Assembly: GCA_965153285.1 (NCBI GenBank)
Contig: OZ229111.1
Length of the DNA: 64,000 nt
DNA from: Podarcis tiliguerta
Lineage: Eukaryota
Strand: one strand, 5' to 3'
The position numbers were made by a program. Below are positions 52,301 to 54,592 of this stretch, in pieces. Position 1 is the stretch's first letter, and each line of letters starts with the position of its first letter.

Positions 52301-54555
52301 CCCTGCTCAGTCTCCAAACCTTCCCATCTTCTATAGGGATTCTACCCACATTCACTTGTACATGATTGATCGCGAAGAGAGTTGTACTTGCATTCACATG
52401 AGGATAATTCCTATACAGACCTTCCCTACACAAGAGAAGGTCAGGGACTGAATGAGGGAAGTGTGCATGATGAAGTTGGGGGCAGGGCTTGTACACTGGA
52501 CCCAGAATCCCTACACAATTTGGTGCTTACATGTTCAGACAAGGACCTGAACACCTCTCCCATCTCTCATTTCCATTTCCGTCCTAGTAGAATCAGTGAC
52601 TGAGACTGGTAATGCATTGCATGGAGCTAAAGGAATTTAAACCTAATTCAGACAAGATTAGTTGATTAGTGCAGCTGCTGGTTCATAGCAGACCTTTCTT
52701 TTTCTATAGGCATATTGCCTGTTTATTTTATTGTTTTAAACCTTTCTGACTCTCTGGAGAGGAGTATTTCATTCTTTCCATCTTACCTTCTGCTAAAGTA
52801 AGCCATCAGATTTGGGGAATTTATAAGGATATACCTCAGTTTCTTGTAGAACGAGAACCATGTGCTAGTTAATAAGGCCAATCTAGAAGGCATACAAGTT
52901 GCTAGACAGCTACTGAAACAGAACTCAAAGGTTTGGGACAGGTATACAGCTCCAGCTAAAACCCCAAACTTTAGCATTCTTGTTCCAAGGATAATAGAAC
53001 TTTAGCAAACTGTTTGTGACTCAATAAGAAATACTGACAGGGCAATTATGCACAGAAGACTTCTGTACAAATGCATCTGCAGGTGATCAGTGTTGTCAAT
53101 CACACATTGCCAGTGGGATCCCAGTTCTGATCACTACTGTTCCACACAGACTAATAGTACTGGGGGAAAGAGCTGTTTTTATGGCAATACCACAATAGCT
53201 CTAAATCCCCTCATCATAAATATCATACGTTAATGCTTCCTGATTGTCACCAATCAGGGCATTATGTAGAAGGGGTTCTTGTGAATGAGAGATCTATGAG
53301 CCCAGGATCTCTGCGGAGTAGTAAAACATTAACAGCACACTGCAAGGCTACAAAGCAATATTCTAGTACAGGAACATAACATAGCACTACCTTGCTCTTA
53401 AGGGTTTGGAAAGCCAACTGGATGGAGGGCAATTCTCACTACAGCAGTTCTCAGAATTTATAGATTAACAAAAGAAACCAGTTTTAATTCTTTCCAGGTC
53501 TACAGAAAATATGTGTACGTGCTGTGGTTATAACAGTACACTTTGCAACAGACAATGGAACAATTAGTCAAATCTATGGCAAAAGAACATTTTAAAAGGC
53601 CTTCATGCTAAGGGGGCAGATTTACCATGAGAAGGAGTGCTATGGAGCTTGAAAGCCATTTTTGCAACACTTGTAAGTGCTTACGCTAGTAAAATCATTT
53701 GCCACATGAAAAAAAAATGAATGAACTACCAGCAACTGAAAGGACACAGAAATAATTTCACAGGAGTGAGACTATCAACAGCCAACAATCAGAGACAGTA
53801 TTTCTTTCCCAAGAGGCAAGGCATCAAGTAATATTGCTGCCCTGGCAAGCTCTTGAATCCTGCTTGATCATTCCTGTTTGCTTTGCCCAGATTTTCCAGC
53901 ACTGGCACAAGAAGTATTACAGATGTGCTGGTAAATGACATCCATACTGCTGCAGATGCTTAAAAACTGAAGCAGAAAAGCTTTGGGACAAAATTGCCTG
54001 TCCCTCTTCATCACAACAAAGAAATATATCAAACGATGTAAACGTATCCTGTAAGCATTGCCACTTTTCAAGGCAAAGCATCATAGTCATGGCATGAGAG
54101 CCCAATCTCCGCGGAGAAGAATCTTACGCATGGAAGCCCAGGGATTCTGCCTGATTCCGTGCATAAGATCAGCAAAGTTGCCTTCTTCAGGCAACTATAG
54201 CATGGAGGGGAATGATGTGTTTCTCATATATATATATATATATATATGCTTTCGTAGATTTTCACGGGTACAGGAATGCAGGTTTTGGTGTCCTCGGGTG
54301 TCTTCCCGTGTAAAAGTTGGGGTGTCTAGGCGACGTTTCGACGAGGTCTCACTCGTCATCTTCAGGCTGGTGCTTTCGGCTTCTTGTTACTGGAACAGAG
54401 CAGGATCTTATAGGAACTCAAACACTGAGATCCTGCTCTGTTCCAGTAACAAGAAGCCGAAAGCACCAGCCTGAAGATGACGAGTGAGACCTCGTCGAAA
54501 CGTCGCCTAGACACCCCAACTTTTACACGGGAAGACACCCGAGGACACCAAAACC

Positions 54556-54592
<37 letters not shown>

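What the first reader, a model, noticed from the sequence alone, without database searches (positions are those of the whole stretch)
54226..54590. Perfect 133-bp palindrome of Penelope-like origin inside a (TA)n tract in MAP2K4 intron 2
Seen: 54276-54408 is the exact reverse complement of 54428-54560 (no mismatches by eye, 19-nt spacer). Only the left arm has a 28-nt extension (on -: TCCTGTACCCGTGAAAATCTACGAAAGC), and both flanks are (AT)n. Known: Penelope-like elements often insert as a 3' end plus an inverted partial pLTR that lacks the terminal tail, and some target microsatellites. Inference: a very recent insertion, since CpGs are intact and the arms have not diverged. The MAP2K4 pre-mRNA would fold a 133-bp perfect duplex (potential ADAR/Dicer substrate), and the DNA could form a cruciform.
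Basis: partly seen in the sequence, partly recalled or inferred. Interest (0 to 1): 0.75.

Follow-up and report, generated by a model that had tools for sequence, protein, structure and literature searches.

The report
Young Penelope-like retroelement hairpin in MAP2K4 intron
The perfect 133-bp palindrome is real and is a very young, heavily truncated head-to-head double insertion of a Penelope-like retrotransposon's end into a (TA)n tract, a known signature of these elements rather than a new kind of feature.

Summary
Arms 54276-54408 and 54428-54560 are 133 nt and 100% complementary, with a 19-nt spacer, a one-sided 28-nt extension (54248-54275) and (TA)n on both flanks.

- Each arm carries a minimal hammerhead core. 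A descriptor finds it only in the two arms and in 0 of 200 shuffles.
- An ATG sits at the start of hammerhead stem II. The frame stays open for 37 codons, to the end of the extension.
- That peptide matches the N-terminus of P0004 (25 of 37). P0004 leads to a rattlesnake protein, and that leads to 471 longer proteins. RT was scanned in 5 of 5 and GIY-YIG in 4 of 5.
- Head-to-head inverted truncated copies, a one-sided tail of about 30 bp, a repeat holding the first ORF codons, and AT-rich or (TA)n targets are all published Penelope-like traits.
- CpG observed/expected is 0.89 in the arms against 0.17 in the intron, so the insertion is young.

It lies in a roughly 13.7-kb MAP2K4 intron. Rfam hammerhead models do not hit and helix I is weak. 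No other genomic copy, reads or RNA data could be examined. This is an ordinary but clean example, of low to moderate interest.

The parts
54226..54247 (.). Left (AT)11 microsatellite flank (target tract)
   Evidence: pure TA/AT run of 22 nt
54248..54275 (-). 28-nt 'tail': extra 3'-terminal stretch present only on the left copy (sense on the minus strand); codons 29-37 of the element ORF
   Evidence: left copy ends 112 nt from the A of the ATG, right copy 84 nt. Published PLE tails are 30-40 bp or 31 bp
54276..54408 (-). Left arm: 5'-truncated 3' end of a Penelope-like element (sense on the minus strand)
   Evidence: 133 nt, 100% complementary to the right arm
54332..54365 (-). Minimal hammerhead core, left copy (CUGANGA box, bulged U, 6-bp helix II, GAAA, palindromic CG, UC)
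   Evidence: descriptor hit; 0 hits in 200 shuffles. Not hit by Rfam models
54249..54359 (-). First 37 codons of the element ORF (ATG at 54359-54357), open to the end of the tail
   Evidence: phmmer hits P0004 and P0003
54409..54427 (.). 19-nt spacer between the arms. Probably the extra 5' stretch of the longer of the two copies, or filler; which one is undetermined
   Evidence: no family consensus available to decide
54428..54560 (+). Right arm: tail-less inverted copy (sense on the plus strand), ending 84 nt into the ORF
54471..54504 (+). Minimal hammerhead core, right copy
54561..54590. Right (TA)15 microsatellite flank (the run measured is 54559-54590 and shares 2 nt with the arm end)
48937..49110 (-). 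MAP2K4 coding exon (start of the kinase domain), approximate borders; downstream neighbour of the intron that holds the palindrome
   Evidence: 52 of 52 residues identical to PDB 3aln_A (MKK4)
62851..62952 (-). Preceding MAP2K4 coding exon, approximate borders; upstream neighbour of the intron
   Evidence: minus-strand frame 63141-62851, last 34 residues. Assignment to MAP2K4 by recall of the protein, not by a search

Best explanation
The palindrome is one integration product of a Penelope-like retrotransposon (PLE) of the Penelope/Poseidon type. Two inverted, heavily 5'-truncated copies of the element's 3' end are joined head-to-head inside a (TA)n microsatellite of a MAP2K4 intron.

What each copy holds: the last part of the pseudo-LTR, with the minimal hammerhead motif and the first codons of the element ORF. 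One copy ends 112 nt into the ORF (with the 'tail'). The other ends 84 nt into it (no tail).

Most likely mechanism (inferred by analogy with the in vitro behaviour of the Anolis element PAc):
1. The element's RT/GIY-YIG protein nicked both strands of the AT-rich tract.
2. Each 3' end primed reverse transcription at one of two adjacent internal start sites on the element RNA, 28 nt apart.
3. After roughly 130-180 nt, synthesis switched from the RNA onto the other cDNA, or the cDNA snapped back on itself. This gave two exactly complementary arms around a 19-nt spacer.

The insertion is young: the arms are identical and the CpGs are undecayed.

Shown here: the anatomy, the hammerhead core, the ORF start and its homology chain to RT+GIY-YIG proteins, and the intronic position.

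Inferred: the order of events, the use of both strands, and the template switch.
For: Anatomy:
- 133-nt perfect arms, a 19-nt spacer, a one-sided 28-nt tail, and TA runs of 22 and 32 nt.
- The sense copies point outwards (head-to-head). This is the polarity expected if each cDNA is attached to a nicked target 3' end.

Hammerhead core: the descriptor hits 54471-54504 (+) and 54365-54332 (-) and nothing else in 64 kb on both strands. There were 0 hits in 200 dinucleotide shuffles. The features match the paper's list, and most closely the D. virilis Penelope variant: 6-bp helix II, bulged 5' base, 2-nt palindromic insert, 2-bp helix I.

ORF start at stem II: the cut site is 28 nt from the A of the ATG. 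[quoted passage not shown] Here the ends lie at 112 and 84 nt.

Homology chain:
- The 46-aa frame hits 2 of 1.84 billion representatives at E<=0.001: P0004 (E 9.9e-4, starting at the same Met) and P0003 (E 9e-5).
- Identities are 25 of 37, 22 of 37 (P0005) and 20 of 37 (P0003).
- P0004 matches P0005 of Crotalus adamanteus at 65% over 97%, E 8.5e-64.
- P0005 matches 471 longer proteins. Of the 120 listed, 117 carry PF00078 with PF28514 and PF26215, 2 lack PF26215, 1 lacks PF00078, and 1 is a latrophilin fusion.
- Pfam scan of 5 of these: RVT_1 in 5 of 5. GIY-YIG at E<=0.01 in 4 of 5, but above Pfam's cutoff in only 1.
- The GIY-YIG core with embedded cysteines is seen in 5 of 7 inspected. The extra CX2-5CXXC linker motif is seen in 0 of 7.

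Literature:
- Inverted 5'-truncated copy, one-sided 30-40 bp tail, (TA)n targets (passages).
- PAc nicks and extends both strands and prefers AT-rich DNA (main text).
- A 31-bp tail on one of the inverted pLTRs, a pLTR that includes the first ORF codons, and head-to-head as the most frequent arrangement (passages).
- Dual min-HHRs 100-700 bp apart on opposite strands.

Youth: CpG observed/expected 0.89 against 0.17.

A second copy: the exonised copy in P0003 (Laticauda) also ends after 'ENLR' and continues 'IYI', as a TA run would translate.
Against: - Rfam hammerhead models give no hit on the whole region or on one arm alone, even at E<=10.
- Helix I has only 2 contiguous base pairs. The best upstream/downstream duplex (-6.1 kcal/mol) is matched or beaten by 368 of 500 shuffles.
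- The hammerhead descriptor was written after I had seen the motif.
- The first protein link is short and only marginally significant (E about 1e-3 to 1e-4). A word-indexed search for longer proteins with the same 46-aa query found nothing.
- No RT/GIY-YIG ORF and no second copy of the repeat lie in the window.
- The family consensus, its usual end points, and whether the spacer is element sequence could not be checked, because no eukaryotic genome or repeat library was on hand and the PAc GenBank file could not be read.
- The tail is 28 nt, just under the published 30-40 bp.
- The two-strand, two-start-site mechanism is an analogy with one lizard element studied in vitro.
Confidence: 0.85

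Rival explanations
1. A single 5'-truncated Penelope-like insertion was made by ordinary one-strand target-primed reverse transcription. The second arm arose by snap-back: the cDNA folded on itself and primed its own second strand, or a later replication or repair fold-back did so. Under this reading the missing tail on one arm is an accident of where copying stopped or where the end was joined to the TA tract.
For: Arkhipova et al. [quoted passage not shown] The two arms share the same inner boundary apart from a short 19-nt loop. The right arm ends in 'CAT', which overlaps the TA run by 2 nt and so allows a microhomology join.
Against: The tail-less end lies 28 nt from the tailed end. That is close to the published tail length, which Frangieh et al. 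assign to two discrete RT start sites. A random stop would not be expected there. PAc extends both strands in vitro. Nothing here separates the two models decisively.
Confidence: 0.3
2. The palindrome, or its perfection, is an assembly or sequencing artefact such as a fold-back chimeric read or a mis-joined inverted repeat. The genome would then hold only one arm, or two diverged arms.
For: Craig et al. state that complex tandem/inverted PLE insertions often cause problems in shotgun assemblies (passage). Perfect identity is also what an artefact would give.
Against: The structure is small (365 bp with flanks) and sits between unique intron sequence on both sides. It is asymmetric in the way real PLE insertions are, with a one-sided tail and a non-palindromic 19-nt spacer. 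There is no N or gap in the window. No reads were available to test it.
Confidence: 0.07
3. It is a short non-autonomous DNA transposon (a MITE or foldback element with long terminal inverted repeats) that inserted at a TA site. It would be unrelated to reverse transcription.
For: The long inverted repeats and the TA-rich target resemble some MITEs (my general knowledge). Rfam hammerhead models do not hit.
Against: The outermost termini are not inverted repeats, because the 28 nt on one side have no partner. The arms carry a hammerhead core and the start of an ORF whose relatives are RT+GIY-YIG proteins. No transposase-like ORF or further copy lies in the window.
Confidence: 0.03

Closest known systems
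PAc, the Poseidon-type Penelope-like element of Anolis carolinensis (Frangieh et al. 2024, PMC11167929; main text read)
   Same: The ORF starts at hammerhead stem II, with C3 and G8 before the start codon. The ribozyme cut site is a few tens of nt into the ORF (26 bp stated; 28 nt from the A of the ATG here). The insertion unit ends about 111-118 nt into the ORF (112 here). There is an optional tail between two adjacent RT start sites (28 nt here), an AT-rich target, and both strands are extended.
   Different: Sequence similarity to Anolis proteins is low. The window peptide matches P0020 at 6 of 31 aligned positions, and P0005 is 40% identical to P0020. The closest relatives found are snake proteins. 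PAc DNA could not be compared because the file is unreadable. That P0020 is PAc itself is not established.
Pen2a_Av and related Penelope families of Adineta vaga (Arkhipova et al. 2013, PMC3846280; passages read)
   Same: An inverted pLTR sits next to the direct one, with a 31-bp tail optionally on one of the inverted pLTRs. The pLTR holds the first ORF codons and the tail extends them. The head-to-head arrangement predominates.
   Different: In those families a full or partial ORF lies between the pLTRs and short target-site duplications can be read. Here only two terminal fragments of 133 and 161 nt are present. A duplication cannot be read inside a microsatellite.
Minimal hammerheads of metazoan PLEs, especially the Drosophila virilis Penelope variant (Cervera & de la Pena 2014, PMC4209133; parts 1-2 of the text read)
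   Same: CUGANGA and GAAA boxes, a bulged base between positions 9 and 10.1, a G10.1-C11.1 pair, a 6-bp helix II, a 2-nt palindromic insert in place of helix III, and a 2-bp helix I. Dual motifs 100-700 bp apart on opposite strands are reported for Schistosoma mansoni.
   Different: There is no bulge inside helix II. Activity is unknown. A transcript of this locus carries one sense and one antisense copy, so the dimer that such ribozymes are thought to need cannot form in cis. The motif would also be buried in the 133-bp duplex.
Naiad PLEs (Craig et al. 2021, PMC8557442; passages read)
   Same: (TA)n microsatellites as preferred targets, inverted 5'-truncated copies, and a one-sided 30-40 bp tail.
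   Different: Naiads lack canonical hammerheads and have an N-terminal endonuclease. Relatives of this element have a C-terminal GIY-YIG and no CX2-5CXXC linker motif (0 of 7).

Membership tests
Penelope-like element (endonuclease-positive, Penelope/Poseidon type), as a truncated insertion | Sequence belongs to a unit whose ORF encodes a PLE-type RT followed by a GIY-YIG endonuclease | tested here: inconclusive
   No RT/GIY-YIG ORF is in the window; the only RT is an APE-type LINE at 41875-44889. The link runs through the 37-codon ORF start: P0004 (E 9.9e-4, 25 of 37), then P0005 (E 8.5e-64), then 471 longer proteins. RVT_1 in 5 of 5 scanned and GIY-YIG at E<=0.01 in 4 of 5. The first link is short and marginal.
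Penelope-like element (endonuclease-positive, Penelope/Poseidon type), as a truncated insertion | Hammerhead motif in the pseudo-LTR | tested here: met
   The descriptor hits only the two arms, with 0 of 200 shuffles. Features are as listed in the paper. Helix I is weak and Rfam gives no hit.
Penelope-like element (endonuclease-positive, Penelope/Poseidon type), as a truncated insertion | Inverted 5'-truncated copy adjoining head-to-head | tested here: met
   the sense strands of the two copies point outwards. Described.
Penelope-like element (endonuclease-positive, Penelope/Poseidon type), as a truncated insertion | Optional tail of about 30-40 bp at one end only | tested here: met
   28 nt at 54248-54275, on the left copy only. 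This is slightly shorter than the published 30-40 bp and 31 bp.
Penelope-like element (endonuclease-positive, Penelope/Poseidon type), as a truncated insertion | Terminal repeat includes the first codons of the ORF, and the tail extends them | tested here: met
   28 codons without the tail and 37 with it. Compare 12 and 22 codons in Pen2a_Av.
Penelope-like element (endonuclease-positive, Penelope/Poseidon type), as a truncated insertion | AT-rich or microsatellite target | tested here: met
   TA runs of 22 and 32 nt flank the insert. Whether the tract pre-existed at full length cannot be told without an empty allele.
Hammerhead ribozyme (type I) | Match to a curated covariance model | tested here: not met
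   No hammerhead family was listed for 54150-54700 at E<=1 or for one arm alone at E<=10.
Hammerhead ribozyme (type I) | Conserved core (CUGANGA, GAAA, UH) with helix II closed by G10.1-C11.1 | tested here: met
   CTGAAGATGACGAGTGAGACCTCGTCGAAACGTC, with a 6-bp helix II and a 6-nt loop.
Hammerhead ribozyme (type I) | Helix I pairing the stretches before the core and after the cut site | tested here: not met
   2 contiguous pairs. The best duplex is -6.1 kcal/mol, and 368 of 500 shuffles are as good.
Hammerhead ribozyme (type I) | Self-cleavage | not testable with these tools
   Single min-HHRs showed no detectable cleavage in vitro. The PAc motif needed its protein.
TIR DNA transposon / MITE | Element termini are inverted repeats of each other, next to a target-site duplication | tested here: not met
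   The left terminus carries 28 nt without a partner. A duplication cannot be read inside the TA tract.
Non-LTR retrozyme (tandem hammerhead repeats) | Head-to-tail tandem copies of a hammerhead-bearing unit | tested here: not met
   There are only two copies, and they are inverted, with none elsewhere in the window. The family definition was seen in an abstract only.
microRNA precursor families hit by Rfam | Score at or above the family's gathering threshold | tested here: not met
   The best is MIR1861 at 55.1 bits against 88. Both strands hit many unrelated hairpin models, as any long perfect hairpin would.

The most novel reading that the evidence does not exclude
The locus is a natural minimal snapshot of a coupled, two-strand Penelope-like integration. 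One dimeric RNP nicked both strands of the TA tract. Its two polymerases started at the two different internal start sites (84 and 112 nt into the ORF) in the same event, and they were joined by a template switch after fewer than 200 nt. This would be in vivo confirmation of the in vitro PAc model, with both start sites used in one event. It would also show that a Poseidon-type family is active now in this, probably squamate, lineage and leaves perfect long hairpins in the introns of essential genes. Such hairpins could feed RNA editing or small-RNA pathways.
Probability: 0.35. Interest if true: 0.45.

Novelty: new member of a known kind. Interest (0 to 1): 0.25.

Why it matters
It matters modestly.

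- As a specimen: every junction of this unusually clean, undecayed minimal Penelope-like insertion can be read. The two ends lie 28 nt apart, the ORF start is embedded in the hammerhead, and the target is a TA tract. It therefore bears on the still unsettled integration mechanism of these elements. It agrees with the two RT start sites and two-strand extension reported in vitro for the Anolis element.
- For activity: it implies recent activity of the family in this genome.
- For the host: a 133-bp perfect duplex in the pre-mRNA of a conserved kinase gene is a plausible substrate for RNA editing or dicing, and a perfect DNA palindrome is a potential fragile site. Both are inference. If the insertion is polymorphic, it is a convenient marker for both effects.

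Tried and rejected
- **Rfam on the region and on one arm.** Only sub-threshold hairpin-type hits came back (miRNA and SRP models, on both strands). I rejected these as generic consequences of a long perfect hairpin. No hammerhead model hit.
- **Rfam on the whole window at gathering scores.** Only SCARNA16 hit, far from the finding.
- **BLASTN of the 365-bp region against the window.** There is no further copy, so no family alignment could be made from the window.
- **PAc reference sequence.** The only readable supplement is a list of read-archive accessions. The GenBank file and the two PDFs could not be read, so there was no direct DNA comparison with PAc.
- **Word-indexed protein search with the 46-aa frame for longer proteins.** Nothing was found. 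The exhaustive HMMER search then gave two marginal hits.
- **Helix I and the dimeric helix III.** Helix I is not supported. The unconstrained dimer fold did not use the ACGU palindrome.
- **Whether the 19-nt spacer continues one arm.** I compared frames by eye with the upstream part of P0003. This is too weak to use, so it remains undecided.
- **MITE reading.** Rejected because of the unpaired 28-nt terminus and the RT-element homology.
- **Literature searches for earlier descriptions of such hairpin insertions.** Nothing specific to squamates or to this locus appeared in the listings. The general architecture is already described.
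Full report
**1. Observation**

The sequence and the repeat finder confirm the palindrome.
- The two arms, 54276-54408 and 54428-54560, are 133 nt and 100% complementary.
- A 19-nt spacer (54409-54427) separates them.
- The left arm is followed outwards by 28 further nucleotides (54248-54275) that have no partner on the right.
- Both sides then run into pure TA/AT tracts of 22 nt (54226-54247) and 32 nt (54559-54590, the first two bases shared with the arm end).

The folds behave as expected for such a structure.
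- As RNA, the minus strand of 54200-54620 folds at -312.5 kcal/mol against -101.4 for shuffles (z -32; 0 of 100 shuffles as good).
- As DNA, the 365-nt stretch folds at -197 kcal/mol (z -38; 0 of 100).

The window has no N, and it holds no other copy of the arm.

**2. Context**

The window is not human, in my reading.
- It carries a repeat of a class reported absent from mammals (text; abstract).
- The repeat's closest protein relatives come from snakes.
- I therefore treated the window as a non-mammalian vertebrate, probably a squamate. That assignment is an inference.

The gene call holds.
- A minus-strand exon at about 48937-49110 translates to a stretch that is 52 of 52 residues identical to the PDB MKK4 chain 3aln_A.
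- Pfam sees the start of a kinase domain there, below its cutoff.
- The preceding coding exon ends a minus-strand frame at about 62851-62952. I assign it to MAP2K4 from memory of the protein.
- The palindrome therefore lies in a roughly 13.7-kb intron and is transcribed with the gene.
- 'Intron 2' is right if the exon layout equals the human one as I recall it.

Exons were looked at one by one. I built no joined model and did not search with one.

**3. What the arms are**

The sense strand is the plus strand for the right arm and the minus strand for the left arm. Read on that strand, each arm contains CTGAAGATGACGAGTGAGACCTCGTCGAAACGTC. This is a hammerhead core made of:
- the CUGANGA box;
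- one bulged base;
- a 6-bp helix II closed by G-C;
- GAAA;
- a palindromic CG in place of helix III;
- UC at the cut site.

I wrote a descriptor from the features that Cervera & de la Pena list for Penelope-like ribozymes. It finds these two sites and nothing else on either strand of the 64-kb window, and it found nothing in 200 dinucleotide shuffles.

Several results count against a working ribozyme.
- Rfam's hammerhead models do not hit, even on one arm alone at E<=10.
- Helix I has only two contiguous pairs, and its best duplex is no better than shuffles (368 of 500 shuffles as good).
- The descriptor was written after I had seen the motif.
- The D. virilis Penelope variant is described with the same oddities: a 2-bp helix I, a 2-nt palindromic insert, a 6-bp helix II and a bulged 5' base.

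I therefore read it as a Penelope-type motif of unproven activity.

**4. The ORF start**

An ATG overlaps the end of the core and the start of helix II. The frame stays open for 37 codons, to the very end of the 28-nt extension.
- The cut site is 28 nt from the A of the ATG.
- The tail-less arm ends at 84 nt.
- The tailed arm ends at 112 nt.

Frangieh et al. describe the Anolis Poseidon element PAc with:
- the ORF starting at stem II;
- C3 and G8 before the start codon;
- the cut site 26 bp downstream;
- reverse transcription starting 111-118 bp into the ORF;
- the 'tail' as the stretch between two adjacent start sites.

The agreement in layout is close.

**5. Walk to RT plus GIY-YIG**

- A first attempt with 37 aa was under the tool's minimum.
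- The 46-aa frame found nothing in the word-indexed search for longer proteins.
- An exhaustive HMMER search of 1.84 billion representatives gave two hits at E<=0.001.
  - P0004 (189 aa, E 9.9e-4) starts at the same methionine.
  - P0003 (E 9e-5) is a Laticauda transporter model whose C-terminus is an exonised copy of the repeat.
- Identities to the 37 residues are 25 of 37 (P0004), 22 of 37 (P0005) and 20 of 37 (P0003). They are much lower for more distant proteins, from 2 of 8 to 13 of 36.
- P0004 matches P0005, a hypothetical protein of Crotalus adamanteus, at 65% identity over 97% of its length (E 8.5e-64).
- P0005 shows LSKGFNF, PADKG and GLPKIHK...PLRPIVS. I recall these as Penelope-type motifs, and Craig et al. 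name the DKG motif.
- P0005 in turn matches 471 longer proteins. Of the 120 listed, 117 carry PF00078 with PF28514 and PF26215, 2 lack PF26215, 1 lacks PF00078, and 1 is a fusion with a latrophilin model.
- Of five proteins that I scanned, five have RVT_1. Four have GIY-YIG at E<=0.01, but only one of these is above Pfam's own cutoff. The Anolis protein P0020 shows RVT_1 only.
- By eye, 5 of 7 proteins show the GIY-YIG core with embedded cysteines, and P0020 is among those five. 0 of 7 show the extra CX2-5CXXC linker motif that marks Neptune and Nematis. This points to the Penelope/Poseidon type.

The chain is convincing from P0004 onwards. Its first link is short and marginal on its own. It gains weight from starting at the same methionine, from co-linearity, and from ending just before the conserved LYGE block.

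**6. Anatomy against the literature**

- Craig et al. (passages) state that insertions are often highly 5'-truncated, often have an inverted 5'-truncated copy adjoining, often carry a 30-40 bp tail at one end only, and that (TA)n tracts are preferred targets of Naiads.
- Arkhipova et al. 2013 (passages) describe an inverted pLTR with an optional 31-bp tail and a pLTR that includes the first 12 codons, or 22 with the tail. They describe head-to-head as the most frequent arrangement and infer self-priming.
- Cervera & de la Pena mention dual minimal hammerheads 100-700 bp apart on opposite strands.
- Frangieh et al. show that PAc nicks and extends both strands of AT-rich DNA and starts reverse transcription at two internal sites.

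The locus reproduces all of this in miniature: two terminal fragments of 133 and 161 nt, head-to-head, one with a 28-nt tail, in a TA tract.

The exonised Laticauda copy also stops after 'ENLR' and continues 'IYI', the translation of a TA run. The window's copy continues 'HIYIYIY' in the same way. This is a hint that the tailed end and the TA target recur in the family.

**7. Mechanism**

Any head-to-head pair of 5'-truncated copies looks like a perfect palindrome over the shared part.
- The difference in 5' truncation appears as the spacer.
- The difference in 3' end appears as the one-sided tail.

The polarity found here has the antisense copy attached on the left of the plus strand and on the right of the minus strand. 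This is what results if each nicked target strand primed its own cDNA.

I therefore favour the following sequence:
1. Both strands of the TA tract were nicked.
2. Reverse transcription started at the two sites 28 nt apart.
3. After fewer than 200 nt, synthesis switched onto the other cDNA.

A single cDNA that snapped back on itself gives the same arms. It is disfavoured only by the position of the tail-less end. These steps are inferred, not shown.

**8. Age**

- The arms are identical.
- They keep 8 CpG each, with observed/expected 0.89, against 0.17 in 13.4 kb of surrounding intron.
- I assumed about 1-2e-9 substitutions per site per year and a tenfold higher rate at CpG. These are my own assumptions, not a tool result. 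Under them, 266 identical positions put the insertion within the last few million years at most.
- Conversion between the arms could soften that bound. The CpG content does not depend on it.

**9. Consequences**

- The pre-mRNA must contain both arms, so a 133-bp perfect duplex is expected.
- Editing or dicing of that duplex, and cruciform formation or fragility of the DNA, are reasonable inferences but were not tested.
- The hammerhead copy in the transcript would be locked in the duplex and has no sense partner for a dimer, so self-cleavage of the MAP2K4 transcript seems unlikely.

**10. What stayed unchecked**

- No eukaryotic genome, read set or repeat library was on hand.
- The PAc GenBank file and PDF supplements could not be read, and bioRxiv supplements are closed.
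- As a result, copy number, family consensus, usual end points, the origin of the spacer, read support and polymorphism are all open.

**11. Verdict**

The feature is a new, very clean member of a known kind. It has low to moderate interest, mainly as a natural illustration of the Penelope-like integration signature and as evidence of recent activity.

Noticed in passing
window 41875-44889 (+): An uninterrupted 1005-aa frame with an APE-type endonuclease and a reverse transcriptase (Exo_endo_phos E 1.7e-8, RVT_1 E 2.4e-36). This is a LINE ORF2 that looks intact, lying antisense to MAP2K4. Atlas neighbours are generic chordate and echinoderm LINE clusters. It suggests a second young retroelement family in this locus.
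   Followed up: partly
window 26328-26507 (-): SCARNA16 at 143.1 bits (gathering score 65), the full model, on the same strand as MAP2K4. Whether it sits in a MAP2K4 intron here was not worked out.
   Followed up: no
window 19897-20940 (+): A 348-aa open frame with a SAP domain (Pfam E 8.7e-10). Its best PDB match is the SAP domain of MKL/myocardin-like protein 1, and a coiled-coil-like stretch follows. It looks like a large exon, or a processed copy, of a myocardin-family gene on the strand opposite to MAP2K4.
   Followed up: partly
protein P0003 (UniRef record of a Laticauda MFS-domain protein), residues about 195-249: The C-terminus of this transporter gene model is an exonised copy of the same repeat. 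It includes the stretch upstream of the element's ATG (9 of 9 residues identical to the window's frame) and ends in 'IYI' as from a TA run. It is probably an annotation artefact or a real exonisation of a Penelope-like fragment.
   Followed up: partly
window 29650-29662, 32806-32816, 56138-56151: Three further short TA runs (11-14 nt) in the window carry no insertion. The occupied tract is much the longest, at 22 + 32 nt. This may mean that long tracts are preferred, or that the tract grew at or after insertion.
   Followed up: no
window 34546-34941 (-): A weak Pfam match to the 12-residue Urotensin II model (17.3 bits, cutoff 18.6, E 0.0037) in a 132-aa frame. It is probably chance.
   Followed up: no
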